Origin: Deltaproteobacteria bacterium
Lineage (GTDB): Bacteria; Myxococcota_A; UBA796; SXON01
NCBI GenBank assembly: GCA_947484175.1
Contig: CANKOI010000008.1
Location: forward strand, 2,637-66,636
DNA length: 64,000 nucleotides
Direction: 5' to 3'
Shown: piece by piece, positions 37,849-44,005 of the stretch
How positions within the stretch are numbered: the stretch's first letter is position 1
Layout: every line of letters starts with the position of its first letter
Notes under the pieces: model-generated
The model's input: the letters and a program-made list of their open reading frames with translations, nothing else
The model's database searches: none
Told to the model about the DNA's origin: nothing
Program-made: the position numbers and the translations under genes

Positions 37849-39300
37849 ATGGACATCACTCTCCTCAACCCTCCCGAGCAGCTCCGCGTGTGGGCCGGCA
37901 TTCCCAAGGCCATGGCCTACGGGGTGTACTGCTTTCCGCCGCTCGGCCTGATGTACGTTCAGGCGGCGATCGAAAAACGCTCCCACTACAAGGCGGAGAT
38001 CTTTGATCCGGTCGTCGACGATCTCGACTACCCCGAGTTCGAAGCGCAGCTCAAGCGCTACCCGCTCGACATCGTGGGCATCAGCACCTACACGCACTCG
38101 CTGCCCGACGTGCAGATGACCATCAACACGGTGCGCAAGCTCAACCCGAACGCGAAGATCGTGCTCGGCGGCCCACACACCTCGATGTTTCCCGACTACG
38201 CGATGCAGCTCAAGGATGCCGACGCCATCCTCACGGGCGATGGCGAAGACGCGTTTCTCGAGATGGTACAGCGCTACGACGCCGGCAAGTCCTGGGAGGG
38301 CATCGAGGGCCTCTGGTTCAAGGACAACGACGGCACGGTCATCAAGAACAAGGATCGGAAGAGCACCAAGTCGCTCGACTCCTACCCTTGGCCCGACCGC
38401 AGCCGCACCCGCTTCCGCGAGTACTACCTGCCCGGCTGCAAACAGCCGCTCAACACCACGGCCATCACCAGCCGCGGCTGTCCGCACTCCTGCCCCTTCT
38501 GCCTCACCTACAAGAAGCAGTACCGGATGCGCGACATCGACAACATCCTCGACGAGATGGAGCACTGCGTTTCCCTCGGCATCACCGAGACCCACTTCAT
38601 CGACGACCTGTTCACGCCGAACAGCCAGTGGGCGATGAAGTTCTGCGACGGCATCGAGCGGCGCGGGCTGAAGTTCAACTGGGGCTACAAGACCACGATC
38701 GCCGGTACCACCCGCGAGCAGCTCCGTCGCTGCGCCGAAACGGGCTGCACGAAGATTCACTTCGGCGTGGAGAGCACGAACAACGAAGGCCTCGACGTGT
38801 GGGGCAAACACTGCGACACCGACGACGTGCACCGCGTATTCAAGTGGTGCCGCGAAGAGGGCGTGCGCAGCGTGGCCTACATCATGCTCGGCGGGCCCCA
38901 CGAGCGCACGATGGATGCCGCGATCAAGAACGTCGACGAGATGATCAAGCTCGACGCCGACTACGCGGTGTTCGCGGTCTTCTCGCCCTACCCGGGCACC
39001 GAGAGCTTCGAAGACGGCGCCAAGAAGGGTCTTTTCGCGGCCGACTGCTGGGACCGCCTGATGAAAGACCCGCTCTGCGGCGTGGAAGTACCCGCCTGCT
39101 GGGAGGAGCACCTCACCAAGGAGCAAATCCTTGAGCTCCTGAAGATCGCGCACCGCAAGTTCTACTTGCGGCCTCGTTTCGTGGCGCGCACGGCGGCGAA
39201 GATCGCCAGCGTTTCGGAGGCCAAACGCCTCTTTGCCGGCGGGCTCTCGATCTTCAAGCTGGAATTGCTCAACGGCAAGAGCCGCACCGCACCGGTGTAG
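37849..39300 (+). CDS. B12-binding-domain radical SAM protein (class B rSAM)
   Basis: 483 aa, with a GGAG Shine-Dalgarno 5 nt upstream. It has an N-terminal cobalamin-binding-like domain (DIVGISTYTHS...IVLGGPH). The radical-SAM cluster motif is SRGCPHSCPFC. Confidence 0.9.
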   Translation: MDITLLNPPEQLRVWAGIPKAMAYGVYCFPPLGLMYVQAAIEKRSHYKAEIFDPVVDDLDYPEFEAQLKRYPLDIVGISTYTHSLPDVQMTINTVRKLNPNAKIVLGGPHTSMFPDYAMQLKDADAILTGDGEDAFLEMVQRYDAGKSWEGIEGLWFKDNDGTVIKNKDRKSTKSLDSYPWPDRSRTRFREYYLPGCKQPLNTTAITSRGCPHSCPFCLTYKKQYRMRDIDNILDEMEHCVSLGITETHFIDDLFTPNSQWAMKFCDGIERRGLKFNWGYKTTIAGTTREQLRRCAETGCTKIHFGVESTNNEGLDVWGKHCDTDDVHRVFKWCREEGVRSVAYIMLGGPHERTMDAAIKNVDEMIKLDADYAVFAVFSPYPGTESFEDGAKKGLFAADCWDRLMKDPLCGVEVPACWEEHLTKEQILELLKIAHRKFYLRPRFVARTAAKIASVSEAKRLFAGGLSIFKLELLNGKSRTAPV

Positions 39301-40401
39301 GTGCAGGTGGGCTCGGTCTGGGCAAAACGCGGCGGCCCGGCAACTTCGGTGGGGCCGGGTCGCCTGCGTTTTGCGCTGCGATCGGGCAGCGGGCTCCTCG
39401 TGTTCGCCCTCCTCGCGGCGTGCAGCCCTCACACCGCCGCCGTGGACTCCGGCGACACCGGGCAGAGCGCACACCACACCGGCGACACCGGCACAGCGGG
39501 CGACACCGACAGCGGCGGCGACACCGGCGGGGGGGGCGACACCGACAGCGGCGGCGACACCGACAGCGGCGGCGACACCGACAGCGGCACCGGGCTGGGC
39601 CAGGGCGACTTCATCACCGTTTCGCGGCCCTACGAGGGCGACGCCGCCTGCATCGGCGAGCCCGTGGTTCCCCCGGAGGCGGTGTGTGTGGAAACGCACC
39701 TGCTTGAGGCCCAAATCCTCGACTTCCAGACCGAGGACGAGGTCGCCGACGCGAGCTGGAGCCTGTGGTTCAACGACAACCCTCCCGTCAGCGCCGACGA
39801 TGGGGGAACCGCAAACGCCCGCGGCGTTTTCAAGTCCGAGGCCCCGTCGTGCACCCCCCTTACGATCGGCACCTCCACGCCGGCGGAGTGGGAGGAAACG
39901 GTGCCCACCTACGAACAGCATGTGGTCTGGGGCTGGGAACGGGACGGCGCGATTGAAACGAACGCAGCGGCGGTGTCGTGGAGCACCACGATGATCGTCA
40001 CCTCCGTTTTGGGCACCGAGTGGAAGCCGGGCACCGGCATGGTGATCGGAGCGATCGTCGGCTGCGACAAGGGGCCGTTCGGCCACGCGCAGGTCTACGC
40101 GCACGATGGCGACGGCTGGGCGCCCCCCGACGAACAGGTCTTCTACTTCGACAGCAACCACCTGCCCTCCGAGCGGGAGGCCGACTCCCATCCTGCGAAC
40201 GGCATGTTCCTGATCCTCGATGTTCCGCCGGGCGCGTGGCACCTCAGCGCCTTCGCGTGGGATGGCGCCCTGTTTGAGCTCGGCGGGGCGCCCGTGGCGG
40301 TGCTGGCCGACTCCGTCACGATCGTCACGGTGTACGTGGGCCGCGATGACGGCGCGCACTACCCCGACGTCTGCTTCGCGGCGTGCGACGAGATCAACTG
40401 A
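39301..40401 (+). CDS. Hypothetical lipoprotein with GDT(D/G)SG repeat linker
   Basis: A GTG follows immediately after the rSAM stop. Lipobox: LLVFALLAAC. The repeat tract is HHTGDTGTAGDTDSGGDTGGGGDTDSGGDTDSGGDTDSG. The C-terminal ~270 aa is globular. Confidence 0.75.
   Translation: MQVGSVWAKRGGPATSVGPGRLRFALRSGSGLLVFALLAACSPHTAAVDSGDTGQSAHHTGDTGTAGDTDSGGDTGGGGDTDSGGDTDSGGDTDSGTGLGQGDFITVSRPYEGDAACIGEPVVPPEAVCVETHLLEAQILDFQTEDEVADASWSLWFNDNPPVSADDGGTANARGVFKSEAPSCTPLTIGTSTPAEWEETVPTYEQHVVWGWERDGAIETNAAAVSWSTTMIVTSVLGTEWKPGTGMVIGAIVGCDKGPFGHAQVYAHDGDGWAPPDEQVFYFDSNHLPSEREADSHPANGMFLILDVPPGAWHLSAFAWDGALFELGGAPVAVLADSVTIVTVYVGRDDGAHYPDVCFAACDEIN
39451..39588 (+). repeat. In-frame 18-bp (GDTxSG) tandem repeat tract; three perfect copies of ggcgacaccgacagcggc at 39535-39588
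   Basis: Read directly from the sequence. Imperfect copies begin at 39451. Confidence 0.9.
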
Positions 40402-40440: not shown

Positions 40441-40604
40441 CGAACTCGAGGAGACCTCGAGGCCTAGTCGAGTTCGGAGACACATTTCGGCTTCCGGCGT
40501 AAGCGAACTCAGGGAGACCTCGAGGCCTAGTCGAGTTCGGAGACACATTTCGGCCTCCGGCGTAAGCGAACTCAGGGAGACCTCGAGGCCTAGTCGAGTT
40601 CGGA
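40441..40604. repeat. 63-bp intergenic tandem repeat, 2.6 copies, each with an internal hairpin (CGAACTC...GAGTTCG)
   Basis: The copies lie at 40441-40503, 40504-40566 and 40567-40604 (partial). They differ at only 3 positions. Copy 1 has 9-bp arms CGAACTCGA/TCGAGTTCG and an inner CCTCGAGG palindrome. Confidence 0.9.
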
Positions 40605-40698: not shown

Positions 40699-41238
40699 TC
40701 ATCCTGGCGCCTCAGCACGGGAAACGAGGCCCCGGCGCACGGCCTGCTCGGTTGCTTGTTGGAGGACGTCGGGCGGGAGAGGCGCCGCTGCACAGTCGCG
40801 GAGCGTACGCGCCACGCTCGTGACAGGGACGTTGCCCACCCAGGTGCGATCCTCAGCCGCGAGGTCGGCGTGGTGCAGAACGACGCCATCCGGGACGCGG
40901 AGCCGACGCGCGCGCCACGGCATGGGCAGCGTGAGGTCGGCGAGGTTGGGAAGGATGTCGGAGAGGTCATGCAGCGCAAGCGCAGTCGCGCAGCTGAACA
41001 CGCCTGCTCGTGCAGACCAGAGCCACACCACGACGAGGTCTTCGTCGTCCTGCGAAGGGAGGTGGCGGACACGGTAGATGCCGCGCCTCACGCGGACGAG
41101 CCTGGCTGCGTGCGTGTGGTGGATCAGAAGCTCGGGCGAAAAGCCGAGCGAGCCCGCCTGGGCGGTGGTGAAGTAGCCGGACTGGGAGACCGCAAGGTCG
41201 AGCAGCGACGGCCAGTCGGGAAACGAGGGCGGTGGCAT
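40699..41238 (-). CDS. AbiEi-family (type IV TA) antitoxin-like wHTH protein, no cognate AbiEii toxin adjacent
   Basis: 179 aa. The N-terminal AbiEi-type wHTH is GYFTTAQAGSLGFSPELLIHHTHAARLVRVRRGIYRV. No nucleotidyltransferase ORF lies downstream. Confidence 0.75.
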   Translation of the reverse strand: MPPPSFPDWPSLLDLAVSQSGYFTTAQAGSLGFSPELLIHHTHAARLVRVRRGIYRVRHLPSQDDEDLVVVWLWSARAGVFSCATALALHDLSDILPNLADLTLPMPWRARRLRVPDGVVLHHADLAAEDRTWVGNVPVTSVARTLRDCAAAPLPPDVLQQATEQAVRRGLVSRAEAPG

Positions 41239-41314: not shown

Positions 41315-42616
41315 CTACCCCCCCGCGTCGATCCCCAGCTGCGTAAGCAGCCCGGCAAACGCCGCGTCGAGCGGCGCCTGCACGCGAAGGGGAGCGCCGG
41401 TCCGAGGGTGCGCGAACGCCATCTCGCGGCAATGCAGGGCGAGGCGCCCAAAGCCGTACACCTCGCGGAAGTGGCGGTTGTGTTCCCCCTTGCCGTAGCG
41501 CACGTCGCCGATGATGGGGTGGCTGGCGTGTTTGAGGTGGCGGCGGATTTGGTGCGTCCGCCCGGTGAGGGGCCGGGCCTCAAAAAGGCCGTAACGGCCA
41601 TGCTCCCCGAGCAGGCGGAACTCGGTCAGCGCGGGCTTCCGCTCGGCGCCGGCTTCGCTCGCGAGGGGGTGATCCACGCACGTGAGCGCGGCGTCGTGGC
41701 CGCGGCAGAGCGCGAGGTAGCGCTTCTCCACCGTTCGGCCGGCGAACTGTTCGTGCAGGCGGGCGGCCATCGTGGAGGAGCGTGCGAAGAGCAACACTCC
41801 GCTGGTGGCCCGATCGAGGCGGTGCGCCGCGTGAAGCCGCTGTCCCAGCTGATCACGGAGTTGCTGCAACACGGGCAGCGCGTCGTCGCCCCACCCGCGG
41901 TGCACGAGCGACCCGGCGGGCTTGTTGATCACCACGATGTCGTCGTCAACGTAGAGCACCTCCAGCGGCGGACGGGGCGGCAGCGCCTCGGCGCTCGGCG
42001 AGGCGGGCGCGGGGAGTGTGGGCGGCTTCCCGCGCATCTCCCACGTTTCTTTCACCATCGTGCGGAAGGCCGGCATCAGCGCCCCCTCCACGTCCACGCC
42101 CTCCACCAGCGTGAGCGCGCGCACGATCGCCTCGAAGGTGGAGAGCCCCCCCTCCTTCCGCTCCACCCGGATGCCCCACTCCGTCGGCGGCCCCTCGGGC
42201 AGCGTCACCCGCTCCGCCCGCTCCACCCCCGGCAGCCGCCGCGCCGCCCGCCGCGCCTGCCCCCAACTCCCGTCGGGCACGATCAGCGTGACCGGGCGCG
42301 GATCGCCGTCGGCCATCACCGCGTCGAGCGGCCGCGCGTCGTCGGCGGGGAAGAGCAGAAGTACGCGACGGCCCGCGTCAAACAGCGGGGCAAGGTCTAC
42401 GCGGTCGTCGCGCAGGCCGTGAATGTGCAGCTCGCTGTTGGGCAGGCACTCCATCGCGAGGGGGCCACTGGCGCTGGGGCGGCCGTGCTCGCTGGTATGC
42501 ATCACCAGCACGAGCCGGGTGCGCAGCTCCAAACGCGGCAGCATCGTGCACAGGCAGCGTTCGAGGTGCACCCGACACCGGGGACAGCGGGCGACAAGAC
42601 TTCGGGAGCGTCCCAC
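41315..42616 (-). CDS. Fusion protein: DTW-domain tRNA aminocarboxypropyltransferase-like N-terminus plus RluA/TruC-family pseudouridine synthase C-terminus
   Basis: The DTW half has RCPRCRVHLERCLC (the same C-x2-C-x6-C-x-C spacing as E. coli YfiP/TapT) and LIVPDGSWGQARR (DTW motif). A Pro-rich linker follows. The PUS half has VINKPAGSLVH, HRLDRATSGVLLFA and GRTHQIRRHL. The GTG start at 42616 is inferred; the ORF is open to 42808. Confidence 0.85.
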   Translation of the reverse strand: MGRSRSLVARCPRCRVHLERCLCTMLPRLELRTRLVLVMHTSEHGRPSASGPLAMECLPNSELHIHGLRDDRVDLAPLFDAGRRVLLLFPADDARPLDAVMADGDPRPVTLIVPDGSWGQARRAARRLPGVERAERVTLPEGPPTEWGIRVERKEGGLSTFEAIVRALTLVEGVDVEGALMPAFRTMVKETWEMRGKPPTLPAPASPSAEALPPRPPLEVLYVDDDIVVINKPAGSLVHRGWGDDALPVLQQLRDQLGQRLHAAHRLDRATSGVLLFARSSTMAARLHEQFAGRTVEKRYLALCRGHDAALTCVDHPLASEAGAERKPALTEFRLLGEHGRYGLFEARPLTGRTHQIRRHLKHASHPIIGDVRYGKGEHNRHFREVYGFGRLALHCREMAFAHPRTGAPLRVQAPLDAAFAGLLTQLGIDAGG

Positions 42617-42650
42617 GCGGGCCGCATAGCCCGCCGCGCGGGCGGGGCGC

Positions 42651-43616
42651 CTACGAGGCCACGGCCTCGTGCCCCGCCCGCTCCCAAGCGGCGAACGTGA
42701 GCTGCAGTTCGTAGCGCCGGGCGCGCAAGCGGCCGAGCGCGGACAGCTCCTCGCGAAGGGCGCGGCTGCCCAGCACGCGCTGGATCGCGGCGCGCAGCGC
42801 CGCTGCATCTCCGGGCGGCACGAGCAGGGCCGCGCCGCCGACCACGTCGCGGAGCCCGGGAACGTCGGAGGCGATCACGGGCGTGCCCGCCGCGAGGCCC
42901 TCCAGCGCCACGAGCCCAAAGCCTTCCCACCGCGAGGGCACCACGAGCGCATCGGCCGCTGCGAACAGGTCGGGGAGGTCGTCGCGGGTGCCGAGCCAGG
43001 CCACGCCCGGCGTGGGGGGCGCGAAGGGGCCCTCGCCGACCACGCGCAGCGGAGTGTCGGGCGGCAAGGCCGCAAGCAGCACGTCGAAGCCCTTTTGGGG
43101 CACCCGCCGCCCCACGGCGAGGAGCCCCCCGCCGCCTCGCCAAGGGGCCGCGTACCGAGCGAGGTCCACGCCGTTCGGCACCACCTCGATGCGACGGGCG
43201 AAGCTGTGGCGAGCCGCGGCTTCGCTCACCGCGAGCGTGCGTGCGGGCATCCACGCCGACAGGCGCCGCGCCGCTCGCACGTGCTGCGACTCGTCTACGT
43301 CCACGTTGTGTTCGTGCGACACCACGGGACGGCCGGCGAGGCGCGCGGCCATGCCCCCCCAGAGGTCACCGGCGAACAGGTGGGTGTGCACGACATCGGC
43401 GGCGCGCGCGGCCGCGATCAGGCGGGCGAAAGCGAGGAGGCTCGGCCGCCCGTTCCGCCGCTCGCCGAGCACCACCCCCTCCCCGAACTCCGCCGCGAGG
43501 GGTCCGCCACCGAAAACCGTGGCCACCGTCACCTCCGGGCACAGCCGCGAGTGGGCCAGCACAAGGCGCTCGGCGCCGCCACCGGAGAGGTCGGGGAGCA
43601 CGTGGAGGCGCCGCAC
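42651..43616 (-). CDS. GT4-family (GT-B) glycosyltransferase
   Basis: The start is chosen at GTG 43616 (VRRLHVLPDLSGGGAERLV, a typical GT4 N-terminus). The C-terminal block is PSRWEGFGLVALEGLAAGTPVIASDVPG. The ORF is open further upstream to 43970. Confidence 0.85.
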   Translation of the reverse strand: MRRLHVLPDLSGGGAERLVLAHSRLCPEVTVATVFGGGPLAAEFGEGVVLGERRNGRPSLLAFARLIAAARAADVVHTHLFAGDLWGGMAARLAGRPVVSHEHNVDVDESQHVRAARRLSAWMPARTLAVSEAAARHSFARRIEVVPNGVDLARYAAPWRGGGGLLAVGRRVPQKGFDVLLAALPPDTPLRVVGEGPFAPPTPGVAWLGTRDDLPDLFAAADALVVPSRWEGFGLVALEGLAAGTPVIASDVPGLRDVVGGAALLVPPGDAAALRAAIQRVLGSRALREELSALGRLRARRYELQLTFAAWERAGHEAVAS

Positions 43617-43634
43617 CCCCCCCCCTATCGCCGC

Positions 43635-43650
43635 TGGCACGGGCCTTGCT
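43635..43650 (+). promoter_or_regulatory. Sigma-54 (-24/-12) promoter, TGGCACGGGCCTTGCT
   Basis: This is an exact match to the TGGCACG-N4-TTGCW consensus, including the GG/GC spacing. It lies 51 nt upstream of the ATG of a small ORF. A sigma-54 activator is encoded in the same window. Confidence 0.65.
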
Positions 43651-43700
43651 CCACAGGGGAGTGCTGCTGCTCCTCCCCGCTGCGCTCTCTGGAGATTCTC

Positions 43701-43844
43701 ATGGCCCGTTCCCTCAACGTCAAACATCACGAAACGCCCGGCACTTCGCCGCTCATGAACGCCTTCCTCGCCCTCGCCCTTGGCTGGATGGTTCTGGGCG
43801 CGTTCTTCGCGAACCTCGCCGAAACGACGATCGTCACCCCGTAG
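43701..43844 (+). CDS. Small (47 aa) single-TM hypothetical protein
   Basis: Product: MARSLNVKHHETPGTSPLMNAFLALALGWMVLGAFFANLAETTIVTP. A GGAG lies 6 nt upstream of the ATG. Third codon positions are G/C-rich. A sigma-54 promoter precedes it. It was not listed as a separate ORF because it is the tail of spurious ORF 42669..43844. Confidence 0.5.
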   Translation: MARSLNVKHHETPGTSPLMNAFLALALGWMVLGAFFANLAETTIVTP

Positions 43845-44005
43845 CCGGGGATGGCGATCTGCGGTTCGTTGCGGCCACGCGACGATTCGTAGATTTGCTT
43901 CGGCGACGACGGCCCGCGGCCGGCCTCGCGCCGGCGCGCCCGGTCTTGCCCCAAACTCCGACGCGCGCATCGCCCGGTTAGGCCCGCCGTTCTGCGAGAA
44001 CGCCG

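What the first reader, a model, noticed from the sequence alone, without database searches (positions are those of the whole stretch)
41315..42616. Fusion of a DTW-domain (acp3U-type) enzyme with an RluA/TruC-family pseudouridine synthase
The N-terminal ~200 aa carries the CxxC...CxC cluster with E. coli YfiP/TapT spacing and the DTW signature (DGSW). The C-terminal ~215 aa has the complete RluA-family catalytic core (HRLDRATSG).

The two are joined by a Pro-rich linker in one uninterrupted frame. Two chemically unrelated uridine modifications would then be installed by one polypeptide, which implies a shared tRNA (or rRNA) substrate. I am not aware of this architecture having been characterised.
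Basis: partly seen in the sequence, partly recalled or inferred. Interest (0 to 1): 0.55.

Follow-up and report, generated by a model that had tools for sequence, protein, structure and literature searches.

The report
Fused acp-transferase and pseudouridine synthase gene
One gene in an uncultured myxobacterium really does join two unrelated uridine-modifying enzymes, a TapT-like acp transferase and a TruC-like pseudouridine synthase, into a single protein. The fusion is conserved across a whole clade but has never been studied.

Summary
A minus-strand ORF (41315-42616, GTG start, 433 aa) encodes a DTW domain (Pfam 1.3e-36) followed by an RluA-family pseudouridine synthase domain (1.2e-31). 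A 22-residue Pro/Ala-rich linker joins them.

All known catalytic residues are intact: the Zn finger C11/C14/C21/C23, P90, D115-G-S-W118 and T160 in the DTW domain, and H265-R-L-D268 in the synthase domain.

It is not a frameshift artefact:
- The identical protein occurs in at least 6 independent assemblies.
- 31 GTDB species (all Polyangia-type MAGs) and at least 120 protein clusters carry both domains in one ORF.
- The domains are 60-65% conserved and the linker 17%.

The synthase half is TruC-like. The DTW half belongs to a short, Geobacter-type standalone subfamily that is only 25% identical to E. coli TapT.

Support for a functional link: in Kofleriaceae a different DTW paralogue sits immediately upstream of the orthologous TruC-like gene. 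Some fusion lineages have lost the DTW tryptophan but keep the domain, which suggests it also helps bind the RNA.

Most likely this is a bifunctional tRNA enzyme. The target positions (possibly U47 and U65, or one uridine made into acp3-pseudouridine) remain unproven.

No paper describes it. It is a new variant of a known kind, of moderate interest.

The parts
41315..42616 (-). Complete fusion gene: 433 codons plus stop, GTG start at 42616-42614
   Evidence: ORF list and translation. The start codon context shows the upstream gene's TAG at 42653-42651 and an out-of-frame ATG at 42627. The N-terminus MGxRSK is conserved in homologues.
42548..42586 (-). C4 zinc-finger motif C11-x2-C14-x6-C21-x-C23
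   Evidence: Aligns residue for residue with TapT C31/C34/C41/C43 (Zn coordination described in PMC12630136). The cysteines are invariant in all 50 homologues with a complete N-terminus.
42050..42592 (-). DTW (TDD-superfamily, SPOUT-like) domain, aa 9-189
   Evidence: Pfam PF03942 E 1.3e-36. PDB TapT 9kyt E 1.8e-11. The AF2 model matches 9kyt with TM 0.76-0.78.
42263..42274 (-). DTW signature D115-G-S-W118, equivalent to TapT D137..W140 in the SAM pocket
   Evidence: Alignment to TapT. W118 and G116 are invariant and D115 is present in 120/121 fusion homologues. TapT D137A and W140A mutants lose activity (PMC12630136).
41966..42031 (-). Pro/Ala-rich flexible linker, aa 196-217
   Evidence: Length varies from 15 to 50 aa, composition is A/P/G/E/S-rich, and mean pairwise identity is 17% against 60-65% in the domains. 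pLDDT is 48-71 in the AF2 model.
41327..41965 (-). TruC-like RluA-family pseudouridine synthase domain, aa 218-430, with no S4 domain
   Evidence: Pfam PF00849 E 1.2e-31. NCBIfam best hit is TruC at 204.5 bits. BLASTP gives 42% identity to E. coli TruC over the whole domain. Foldseek matches RluC 1xpi and RluA 2i82 with TM 0.81-0.83.
41813..41824 (-). Catalytic motif H265-R-L-D268 (D268 is the catalytic aspartate)
   Evidence: Aligned to the HRLD motif of RluC, RluD, RluA and TruC. H, R and D are invariant in 121 homologues.
42542..42544 (-). Internal ATG (Met25) used as the start in the public annotation of this protein; it truncates the Zn finger
   Evidence: P0001 is 100% identical but only 409 aa and begins MLPRLE.
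42651..43970 (-). Upstream GT4 glycosyltransferase gene on the same strand, 34 nt away. Possibly co-transcribed; not part of the function.
   Evidence: Pfam Glyco_trans_1_4 and Glycos_transf_1. This neighbourhood is not conserved in other fusion-bearing genomes.

Best explanation
The gene encodes one 433-residue bifunctional RNA (most probably tRNA) uridine-modifying enzyme.

- **N-terminal half.** This is a Zn-finger plus SPOUT-like DTW domain. It should bind SAM and transfer its 3-amino-3-carboxypropyl group to N3 of a uridine, forming acp3U.
- **C-terminal half.** This is a TruC-type pseudouridine synthase without an S4 domain. It should isomerise a uridine through the conserved aspartate D268.
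- **Linker.** The two halves are tethered by a flexible 15-50-residue linker rather than packed rigidly. Binding of one domain therefore raises the local concentration of the other on the same RNA molecule. The DTW domain doubles as the RNA-binding module that S4 provides in RluC and RluD.
- **Most likely targets.** My best guess is two different uridines around the variable-loop/T-arm junction of the same tRNAs, for example acp3U47 (or 46) and pseudouridine 65.

Shown here:
- The fusion is real.
- Catalytic residues are intact in both domains.
- Both domains are under purifying selection.
- The fusion has a single origin within Polyangiales.
- The synthase half has TruC-like affinity.

Inferred, not shown:
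- Both activities.
- tRNA as the substrate.
- The positions modified.
For: **Both domains are significant and all known catalytic and SAM-pocket residues are present.**
- Present residues: P90, D115, W118, T160, basic residues R122/R123/R126/R127 matching TapT Patch2, and H265-R-L-D268.
- Mutagenesis of the TapT equivalents abolishes activity (PMC12630136).

**The folds are confirmed.**
- The AF2 model has mean pLDDT 86.9.
- It matches RluC and RluA with TM 0.81-0.83 and TapT with TM 0.76-0.78.
- pTM is only 0.68 and the linker has low confidence, which fits two tethered domains.

**The fusion is conserved.**
- The identical protein occurs in 6 assemblies.
- All of the best 120 protein clusters and 31 GTDB species carry both domains in one ORF.
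- Mean pairwise identity is 60.5% for DTW, 64.8% for the synthase domain and 17.4% for the linker.

**The synthase half is TruC-like.**
- It is 42% identical to E. coli TruC (172 bits), against 137 bits for RluC, 112 for RluD and 91 for RluA.
- On the fusion-derived HMM, TruC scores 217.6 bits and RluC 151.6.
- A neighbour-joining tree groups it with TruC, and the fused domains form one clade.
- TruC makes pseudouridine 65 in two tRNAs in both E. coli and V. cholerae (PMC12588516).

**There is an independent genomic link between DTW enzymes and this synthase.**
- In three Kofleriaceae species a different DTW paralogue ('DTW-X', about 400 aa) is followed at -4 to +4 bp by the orthologous TruC-like gene.
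- In two Polyangiaceae MAGs, DTW-X, a TadA-like tRNA deaminase and the TruC-like gene share a 5-kb same-strand cluster.

**The DTW domain probably also helps bind the RNA.**
- Sister fusion lineages have lost the DTW tryptophan but keep the domain in front of an intact synthase (L037, L039, P0244-P0247).
- The AlphaFold3 model in the TapT paper has TapT contacting the V-loop, T-loop and D-loop.

**An anecdotal data point.** The only tRNA gene found in the fusion-bearing loci fetched, tRNA-Arg(CCU) in L033, has both G46-U47 and an A49-U65 pair.
Against: - No activity, substrate or position has been measured for any member.
- The DTW half is only 24.6% identical to E. coli TapT and sits in a separate short subfamily.
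- It lacks TapT's 28-residue N-terminal basic extension (Patch1). Mutating Patch1 in TapT costs 50-fold in tRNA binding.
- At least one genome (JGI contig Ga0315336_1000021, 1.04 Mb) appears to carry both the fusion (P0030) and a DTW-X paralogue (P0426). Either could be the U47 enzyme.
- The synthase half scores below the NCBIfam TruC equivalog cut-off (204.5 against 328).
- The fusion gene has no conserved neighbourhood and no adjacent tRNA genes.
- The closest standalone DTW genes (Geobacter) are not next to a synthase gene.
- The trees are neighbour-joining without bootstrap support.
Confidence: 0.6

Rival explanations
1. This is a same-nucleotide pathway. The synthase domain first converts one uridine to pseudouridine, and the tethered DTW domain then adds the acp group to N3 of that same base. 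The product is acp3-pseudouridine. This would be a bacterial, protein-only counterpart of the eukaryotic/archaeal route to m1acp3-pseudouridine in small-subunit rRNA.
For: - DTW-family Tsr3 naturally acts on a pseudouridine derivative, and it makes acp3-pseudouridine when Nep1 is absent (PMC7694415; PMC7026641).
- From my own knowledge, fusions of consecutive steps on one nucleotide are a common reason for fused RNA-modification enzymes (for example MnmC).
- The flexible tether allows hand-over of one flipped base.
- Lineages with a dead DTW but an intact synthase fit loss of the second step.
Against: - The two halves are ordinary members of families whose characterised relatives act on different positions: TruC on U65 in a stem, TapT on U46/47 in the V-loop.
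- The fused DTW domain is barely distinguishable from standalone Geobacter-type enzymes, which have no partner synthase next to them.
- acp3-pseudouridine has never been reported in tRNA or in bacteria.
- P0243 keeps an intact DTW with a degenerate synthase, so the DTW half can evidently be useful without prior pseudouridylation.
Confidence: 0.12
2. In this protein the DTW domain is mainly or only a non-catalytic RNA-binding anchor that replaces the S4 domain. The enzyme is then functionally just a pseudouridine synthase.
For: - Several sister lineages of the fusion have lost the DTW Trp, the FP motif and T160, and have deleted the PTEWGIR loop, yet retain the domain (L037, L039, P0244-P0247).
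- The DTW domain occupies the N-terminal position where RluC and RluD carry S4.
Against: - In the window protein, and in 29 of 31 species, every catalytic and SAM-pocket residue is intact. These residues are invariant or nearly so across 121 homologues.
- A purely structural role would not preserve D115, W118, P90 and T160.
Confidence: 0.08
3. The substrate is ribosomal RNA rather than tRNA. The enzyme would be an RluC/RluD-like rRNA pseudouridine synthase coupled to a Tsr3-like rRNA acp transferase.
For: - The best solved-structure match of the synthase half is the RluC catalytic domain (E 7e-37, 39% identity).
- The founding DTW enzyme, Tsr3, is an rRNA enzyme.
- RluA itself is dual tRNA/rRNA.
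Against: - No TruC structure turned up in the PDB searches, so those rankings cannot favour TruC.
- By sequence, TruC clearly beats RluC.
- There is no S4 domain.
- The Zn-finger DTW type is the tRNA (TapT/DTWD2) type, not the Tsr3 type.
- In two MAGs the orthologous synthase clusters with a TadA-like tRNA deaminase.
Confidence: 0.1
4. The fusion is an assembly or sequencing artefact. Two adjacent genes were joined by a frameshift or chimeric contig.
For: High-GC MAG sequence can hide indels. One related MAG (L034) does have a frame break, although it lies inside the synthase domain.
Against: - An identical protein comes from 6 independent assemblies.
- Both domains lie in one stop-free ORF in 31 species, with linker indels always a multiple of three.
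- At least 120 protein clusters carry both Pfam domains.
Confidence: 0.01

Closest known systems
E. coli TapT (YfiP), tRNA acp3U47 aminocarboxypropyltransferase (PDB 9kyt)
   Same: - Same Pfam DTW domain.
- Same C4 Zn finger with identical spacing.
- Same SAM-pocket residues: P111/D137/W140/T182 correspond to P90/D115/W118/T160.
- Same basic Patch2.
- Same SPOUT-like fold, TM 0.76-0.78.
   Different: - Only 24.6% identical.
- It lacks the 28-residue N-terminal Patch1 extension and the C-terminal tail.
- It belongs to a short (about 200 aa) Geobacter-type subfamily.
- It is covalently joined to a pseudouridine synthase.
- The target position is unknown.
E. coli / V. cholerae TruC, tRNA pseudouridine-65 synthase
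   Same: - RluA-family core with HRLD aspartate and the HQIR and GD.RYG motifs, and no S4 domain.
- 42% identity over the whole domain.
- Groups with TruC in the tree.
   Different: - Scores below the NCBIfam TruC equivalog cut-off (204.5 against 328).
- Carries an N-terminal DTW domain.
- Activity at U65 is untested.
Tsr3 pathway to m1acp3-pseudouridine in 18S/16S rRNA
   Same: It combines pseudouridylation and DTW-type acp transfer on RNA. It shows that a DTW enzyme can use a pseudouridine base.
   Different: - There the steps are done by separate factors (H/ACA RNP, Nep1, Tsr3) on rRNA.
- Tsr3 has no TapT-type Zn finger.
- Nothing shows that the fusion acts on a single nucleotide.
DTWD2 fused to an inactive 3'-5' exonuclease-like domain in delta-proteobacteria and planctomycetes (Burroughs & Aravind 2014, PMC4275035)
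   Same: This is another DTW fusion found in the same bacterial group. It is probably the 'DTW-X' proteins of about 400 aa that lie next to the TruC-like gene in Kofleriaceae.
   Different: - The partner domain there is non-catalytic and C-terminal.
- It is a different DTW subfamily: only about 80-110 bits on the fusion-DTW HMM.
- That paper does not mention any pseudouridine synthase link.
Known bifunctional RNA-modification fusions such as MnmC and RlmKL (from my own knowledge, not tested here)
   Same: One polypeptide carries two catalytic domains that act on the same RNA molecule.
   Different: Those enzymes combine consecutive steps on one nucleotide (MnmC) or two methylations in one rRNA helix (RlmKL). 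An acp transferase plus a pseudouridine synthase has not been described.

Membership tests
DTW / TDD superfamily (PF03942) | Match to the family HMM above the gathering score | tested here: met
   126.6 bits against a cut-off of 33.7, aa 9-189 covering profile positions 2-192 of 195
DTW / TDD superfamily (PF03942) | Central D/E-x-T/S-W motif (catalytic base and SAM-capping Trp) | tested here: met
   D115-G-S-W118 aligns with TapT D137-G-T-W140. W is invariant and D is present in 120/121 homologues.
DTW / TDD superfamily (PF03942) | SPOUT-like alpha/beta fold | tested here: met
   The AF2 model (pLDDT 86.9) matches TapT 9kyt, 9kz5 and 9kza with TM 0.76-0.78 and probability 1.00. The trefoil knot itself was not inspected.
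DTW / TDD superfamily (PF03942) | SAM-dependent acp transfer to N3 of U or pseudouridine | not testable with these tools
   Needs biochemistry or LC-MS
TapT (bacterial DTWD2, acp3U47) | N-terminal C4 zinc finger CxxC-x6-CxC | tested here: met
   C11/C14/C21/C23 correspond to TapT C31/C34/C41/C43. Present in 50/50 homologues with a complete N-terminus.
TapT (bacterial DTWD2, acp3U47) | SAM-pocket residues P111, D137, W140, T182 | tested here: met
   P90, D115, W118 and T160 are all present
TapT (bacterial DTWD2, acp3U47) | Basic tRNA-binding Patch1 in the N-terminal extension (R16/R19/R24/R27) | tested here: inconclusive
   Only 10 residues precede the first Cys, against 30 in TapT. Three Arg residues (R3, R5, R10) lie in a conserved MGxRS(K/R) motif.
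TapT (bacterial DTWD2, acp3U47) | Orthology to E. coli TapT | tested here: inconclusive
   - 24.6% identity and 58.5 bits.
- TapT scores 69.9 bits on the fusion-DTW HMM, against 294 bits for the Geobacter standalone proteins.
- It falls in a separate branch of the neighbour-joining tree.
- A second DTW paralogue appears to occur in the same genome.
- Reference paralogues from V. cholerae could not be obtained.
TapT (bacterial DTWD2, acp3U47) | Modifies U47 of tRNA | not testable with these tools
   No tRNA set for the genome. One tRNA-Arg(CCU) from a related MAG has G46-U47.
RluA family pseudouridine synthases (PF00849 / TIGR00005) | Match to the Pfam catalytic-domain HMM above the gathering score | tested here: met
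   110.4 bits against 26.8, covering the full profile 1-152
RluA family pseudouridine synthases (PF00849 / TIGR00005) | Catalytic Asp in the HRLD motif, plus the downstream HQIR motif | tested here: met
   H265-R-L-D268 and H355-Q-I-R358 are present; H265, R266, D268, H355, Q356 and R358 are invariant, L267 is 118/121 and I357 104/121
RluA family pseudouridine synthases (PF00849 / TIGR00005) | TIGR00005 subfamily cut-off | tested here: not met
   179.5 bits against 192.7. Only profile positions 66-297 match, because the S4 part of the model is absent here.
TruC (tRNA pseudouridine-65 synthase) | Closest E. coli paralogue is TruC; no S4 domain | tested here: met
   - BLASTP: 172 bits (42% identity) against RluC 137, RluD 112 and RluA 91.
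- HMM: 217.6 against 151.6.
- The neighbour-joining tree agrees.
TruC (tRNA pseudouridine-65 synthase) | NCBIfam equivalog NF008321 cut-off | tested here: not met
   204.5 bits against a cut-off of 328. It is therefore 'TruC-like', not a certified equivalog.
TruC (tRNA pseudouridine-65 synthase) | Forms pseudouridine 65 in tRNA | not testable with these tools
   Needs pseudouridine mapping. tRNA-Arg(CCU) from a related MAG has an A49-U65 pair.

The most novel reading that the evidence does not exclude
The fusion is a two-step, single-site machine. The TruC-like domain makes a pseudouridine and the tethered DTW domain immediately alkylates its N3, giving acp3-pseudouridine in a bacterial tRNA (or rRNA). 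That nucleoside is so far known only from eukaryotic 18S rRNA processing mutants. It has never been seen in bacteria or in tRNA.
Probability: 0.12. Interest if true: 0.8.

Novelty: new variant of a known kind. Interest (0 to 1): 0.48.

Why it matters
acp3U47 and pseudouridine 65 are two of the least understood bacterial tRNA marks. Knockouts of tapT or truC give weak or condition-specific phenotypes.

A fusion conserved by selection, together with an independent operon linkage in a sister order, argues that an acp-type and a TruC-type modification act on the same RNAs in one functional unit. That gives a concrete handle for asking what they do together.

The natural series within the family offers ready-made controls for separating the catalytic role of the DTW domain from its RNA-binding role:
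- an intact fusion;
- fusions with a dead DTW domain;
- one fusion with a degenerate synthase domain;
- split adjacent genes.

If the two steps prove to hit one nucleotide, this would add a new modified nucleoside to bacterial RNA.

A practical point: most public gene calls for this family start too far downstream and delete the Zn finger. Anyone cloning from the annotation would probably get an inactive acp-transferase half.

Tried and rejected
- **tRNA genes near the fusion.** I looked in the window and in 37 related loci, to test Burroughs & Aravind's DTWD2-tRNA neighbourhood and to read positions 47 and 65. There were none in the window and a single tRNA-Arg(CCU) in L033.
- **Conserved gene neighbourhood of the fusion gene.** None found. 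GT4/hisS/AbiEi here, DNA polymerase I/acetyltransferase, Ada/OYE and MoCF elsewhere.
- **Ancestral operon in Geobacter.** I checked whether the closest standalone DTW gene is adjacent to a synthase gene. It is not.
- **DTW-X::synthase triple fusions.** None among the best 120 DTW-X homologues. DTW-X is not next to a synthase gene in two further genomes.
- **Placing the DTW half against the V. cholerae paralogues VC1533, VC0131 and VC1980.** Their sequences could not be obtained, and the supplements of PMC6895100 hold no usable alignment.
- **Foldseek against afdb50**, to find UniProt entries with the same architecture. The library was unavailable.
- **Promoter and terminator scan.** Uninformative: one weak promoter-like site upstream of the GT4 gene and one terminator-like site inside the ORF, which is within chance expectation.
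- **Frameshift or chimera.** Rejected.
- **Literature.** Full-text searches for the fusion with six term sets found nothing describing it.
Full report
**1. What is in the sequence**

The stated coordinates correspond to an ORF on the minus strand. The longest stop-free frame runs 41315-42808. The upstream same-strand gene, a GT4 glycosyltransferase, ends with TAG at 42653-42651. The first in-frame start after that is the GTG at 42616-42614; a nearby ATG at 42627 is out of frame. Translation from this GTG gives 433 residues with no stop.

Domain matches:
- Pfam finds a DTW domain at aa 9-189 (PF03942, E 1.3e-36, 126.6 bits against a cut-off of 33.7).
- Pfam finds a PseudoU_synth_2 domain at aa 226-363 (PF00849, E 1.2e-31, 110.4 against 26.8).
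- NCBIfam ranks the C-terminal half TruC (204.5 bits) > RluA subfamily (179.5) > RluC (138.7) > RluD (111.5) > RluA (83.5). All are below the curated equivalog or subfamily cut-offs.

**2. Are the catalytic machineries intact?**

Against solved structures, the N-terminal half matches only E. coli TapT (9kyt, E 1.8e-11). The alignment gives these equivalences:
- C11/C14/C21/C23 correspond to TapT C31/C34/C41/C43, with identical spacing.
- P90 corresponds to P111.
- D115-G-S-W118 corresponds to D137-G-T-W140.
- T160 corresponds to T182.
- R122/R123/R126/R127 correspond to the basic Patch2 residues R144/K145/R148/K149.

In TapT the four Cys bind Zn. P111G, D137A/N, W140A and T182A cripple SAM binding and activity, and Patch2 is needed for tRNA binding (PMC12630136).

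The C-terminal half aligns over its full length with the RluC, RluD and RluA catalytic domains. It has the HRLD aspartate (D268) and the HQIR motif.

An AlphaFold2 model built on 50 homologues has these properties:
- Mean pLDDT is 86.9 and pTM is 0.68.
- Confidence collapses only at the extreme N-terminus and in the linker (aa 196-217).
- Confidence is lower (62-65) in the loop at aa 141-160.
- Foldseek matches RluC 1xpi (E 1e-24, TM 0.81-0.83), RluA 2i82 (TM 0.81) and TapT 9kyt (TM 0.76-0.78).

I read this as two well-folded domains on a flexible tether.

**3. Is the fusion real and selected?**

- The identical protein is called on contigs from six independent samples or assemblies: four ENA assemblies, NCBI GCA_947445365.1 and a Logan assembly.
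- In the 5.8-billion-protein collection, all of the best 120 clusters (down to about 52% identity) carry both Pfam domains.
- In one-genome-per-species GTDB contigs, 31 species have the two domains in a single stop-free ORF. One of them, L034, has a frame break, but it lies inside the synthase domain.
- In a 121-sequence alignment, P90, G116, W118, R127, T160, H265, R266, D268, S272, Y300, G352, H355 and Q356 are invariant. D115 is D in 120 sequences.
- Mean pairwise identity is 60.5% in the DTW domain, 64.8% in the synthase domain and 17.4% in the linker. The linker varies from 15 to 50 residues and is A/P/G/E/S-rich.

Both halves are thus under purifying selection, and the linker behaves as a spacer. 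A frameshift or chimera is excluded for practical purposes.

A by-product concerns annotation. 71 of 121 public gene calls, including the one for this exact protein (P0001, 409 aa), start at an internal Met and delete part or all of the Zn finger. All 50 calls that reach further share MGxRS(K/R)...RCxRC, which matches the GTG start proposed here.

**4. Distribution and origin**

All fusion-bearing genomes are MAGs labelled Polyangiaceae, Polyangiales, Polyangia, Myxococcota or 'Deltaproteobacteria'. Two are evidently mislabelled as Klebsiella.

At 50% clustering, only about nine representatives span both domains. Everything else is a standalone TruC-like protein of about 240 aa or a standalone DTW protein of about 200 aa.

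A neighbour-joining tree of synthase domains shows two things (no bootstrap):
- The fused domains form one clade.
- That clade lies inside a TruC-like group that includes E. coli TruC and excludes RluC, RluD and RluA.

BLASTP and HMM scores agree: 42% identity and 172 bits to TruC against 137 to RluC, and 217.6 against 151.6 bits on the family HMM.

The DTW half is a normal member of a short standalone subfamily:
- It is 50-57% identical to proteins named 'tRNA-uridine aminocarboxypropyltransferase' in Geobacter and Geotalea.
- Those proteins have the same length and the same MGxRSKR N-terminus.
- They score 294 bits on the fusion-DTW HMM, as high as fusion members themselves.
- E. coli TapT is distant: 24.6% identity, and 69.9 bits on that HMM.

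In Geobacter the standalone gene has no synthase neighbour. The fusion therefore looks like a single event in Polyangiales that joined a short DTW gene to the resident truC-like gene.

**5. Independent evidence that a DTW enzyme and this synthase belong together**

- In three Kofleriaceae (Haliangiales, a sister order) species, a different DTW paralogue of about 400 aa is followed at -4 to +4 bp by the orthologous 230-aa TruC-like gene. I call this paralogue 'DTW-X'. It has a DTW domain plus an unassigned C-terminal domain of about 200 aa. It is probably the DTWD2/inactive-exonuclease fusion noted by Burroughs & Aravind (PMC4275035).
- In two Polyangiaceae MAGs, DTW-X, a transglycosylase, a TadA-like tRNA adenosine deaminase and the TruC-like gene lie on one strand within 5 kb.
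- DTW-X is widespread and is not always next to a synthase gene, so this linkage is lineage-restricted. Still, it involves a different DTW subfamily (about 80-110 bits on the fusion HMM). The DTW/TruC-like association therefore arose, or was kept, in two forms.

**6. Natural 'mutants' inside the family**

Several divergent fusion lineages have lost DTW catalytic residues while keeping the domain and an intact synthase half:
- L037: PDGTF.
- L039 and P0245: SEGSQ.
- P0244: YEGTR.
- P0246: PDGSP.
- P0247: PDGNA.
- These changes come mostly with loss of the FP motif and of T160, and in several with deletion of the PTEWGIR loop; L037 keeps both the proline and T160.
- Conversely, P0243 keeps an intact DTW domain but has a degenerate synthase core (HNPD, GQSKHYLRR).

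Keeping a dead DTW domain in front of a live synthase is best explained by a non-catalytic contribution, most simply RNA binding. This fits two observations. The domain sits where RluC and RluD carry their S4 RNA-binding domain. And the TapT paper's AlphaFold3 model has TapT contacting the V-, T- and D-loops.

In the window protein nothing is degenerate.

**7. Mechanism**

My best-supported reading is a bifunctional tRNA enzyme.
- The DTW half binds SAM and transfers the acp group to N3 of a uridine.
- The TruC-like half isomerises a uridine through D268.
- The flexible tether keeps both on the same RNA.
- The DTW half also adds binding energy and specificity.

The specific proposal of acp3U47 (or 46) together with pseudouridine 65 rests on four points:
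- The characterised relatives: TapT acts at 47, and at 46 in P. aeruginosa; TruC acts at 65.
- Established tRNA geometry, from my own knowledge: nucleotide 47 is two residues from position 49, whose pairing partner is 65, so both targets flank the variable-loop/T-stem junction.
- From my own knowledge, E. coli tRNA-Ile1 carries both marks.
- One anecdote: the only tRNA gene in the fetched fusion-bearing loci has G46-U47 and an A49-U65 pair.

This site assignment is inference. It is weakened by three facts:
- The distance from E. coli TapT is large.
- TapT's Patch1 extension is missing.
- At least one contig appears to encode both the fusion (P0030) and a DTW-X paralogue (P0426). In such genomes two DTW enzymes presumably divide different sites between them.

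**8. Rival explanations**

- **Same-nucleotide chemistry** (U to pseudouridine to acp3-pseudouridine). This is the most interesting alternative. Tsr3 acts on a pseudouridine derivative and makes acp3-pseudouridine when Nep1 is missing, and the nucleoside has never been seen in tRNA or bacteria. Nothing here excludes it. But both halves look like ordinary members of families with distinct sites, and the DTW subfamily functions alone in Geobacter. I give it about 0.12.
- **A purely structural DTW domain in this protein.** Unlikely given the invariant catalytic residues (about 0.08).
- **An rRNA substrate.** Possible but disfavoured by the TruC affinity, the TapT-type Zn finger and the TadA linkage (about 0.10).
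- **Artefact.** About 0.01.

**9. Comparison with what is known, and novelty**

Both domains belong to well-known families: the DTW/TDD superfamily and RluA-family pseudouridine synthases. The protein fails the curated equivalog cut-off for TruC, and orthology to TapT could not be established. It should therefore be called TapT-like and TruC-like, not TapT and TruC.

Bifunctional fused RNA-modification enzymes are a known kind. This particular pairing is not described in any of the following:
- the papers that defined the family (PMC4275035, PMC6895100, PMC7026641);
- the TapT structure paper (PMC12630136);
- any full-text hit for six term combinations.

It does exist in public databases under automatic names. 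I rate it a new variant of a known kind, with moderate interest of about 0.48.

**10. Limits**

- There is no biochemical evidence.
- There is no genome-wide tRNA or paralogue census.
- The trees are neighbour-joining without support values.
- afdb50 was unavailable.

Noticed in passing
window 42542-42616 (-); proteins P0001-P0120: Public gene calls for this family are often N-terminally truncated. 71 of 121 homologues, including the 100%-identical P0001 (409 aa), start at an internal Met and lose part or all of the CxxC...CxC Zn finger. The true start here is the GTG at 42616.
   Followed up: yes
L037, L039 (GTDB loci); P0243-P0247: These are degenerate members of the fusion family. Several have lost the DTW tryptophan and, in most, other SAM-pocket residues but keep an intact synthase half. 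One (P0243) shows the reverse pattern.
   Followed up: partly
L060 9965-11853; L075 9914-11857; L045 1150-3043: In Kofleriaceae MAGs a 400-aa DTW protein with an unassigned C-terminal domain (no Pfam hit) is followed at -4 to +4 bp by a 230-aa TruC-like pseudouridine synthase gene. This looks like a translationally coupled operon.
   Followed up: partly
L082 602-5719; L085 56-5298: A same-strand cluster in two Polyangiaceae MAGs: DTW-X, an 815-aa transglycosylase-domain protein, a TadA-like deaminase, and a TruC-like synthase.
   Followed up: partly
L098 (JGI Ga0315336_1000021, 1.04 Mb) and L096: The same 1.04-Mb contig appears to encode both a DTW-X paralogue (P0426) and a DTW::synthase fusion (P0030). 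Fusion-bearing genomes can therefore have two DTW enzymes. This rests on matching contig lengths; the two genes were not seen in one fetched locus.
   Followed up: partly
window 40441-40604: A 63-bp tandem repeat of 2.6 copies with 97% matches. It lies in the intergenic region between the 39301-40401 ORF and the AbiEi-like gene.
   Followed up: no
window 39301-40401 (+), repeat at 39480-39588: A 366-aa ORF with no Pfam hit contains an 18-bp repeat of 6 copies encoding GDTDSG units near its N-terminus.
   Followed up: no
window 40699-41238 (-): A 179-aa AbiEi_4 (antitoxin-type HTH) gene lies 76 nt downstream of the fusion gene on the same strand. No partner toxin gene was looked for.
   Followed up: no
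L012 (CAMAWH010000075.1) and L034 (CAYHRZ010000517.1): MAGs labelled Klebsiella pneumoniae and uncultured Klebsiella sp. carry a Polyangia-type fusion gene at 63-64% identity. The taxonomic labels of these records are almost certainly wrong. L034 also has a frame break inside the synthase domain.
   Followed up: no
L033 1655-1729: tRNA-Arg(CCU), about 8 kb from a fusion gene, has G46-U47 in the variable loop and an A49-U65 pair at the top of the T-stem.
   Followed up: partly
window 37849-39300 (+): A B12-binding radical SAM enzyme gene. In the homologous contigs a PEMT-family methyltransferase gene follows it.
   Followed up: no
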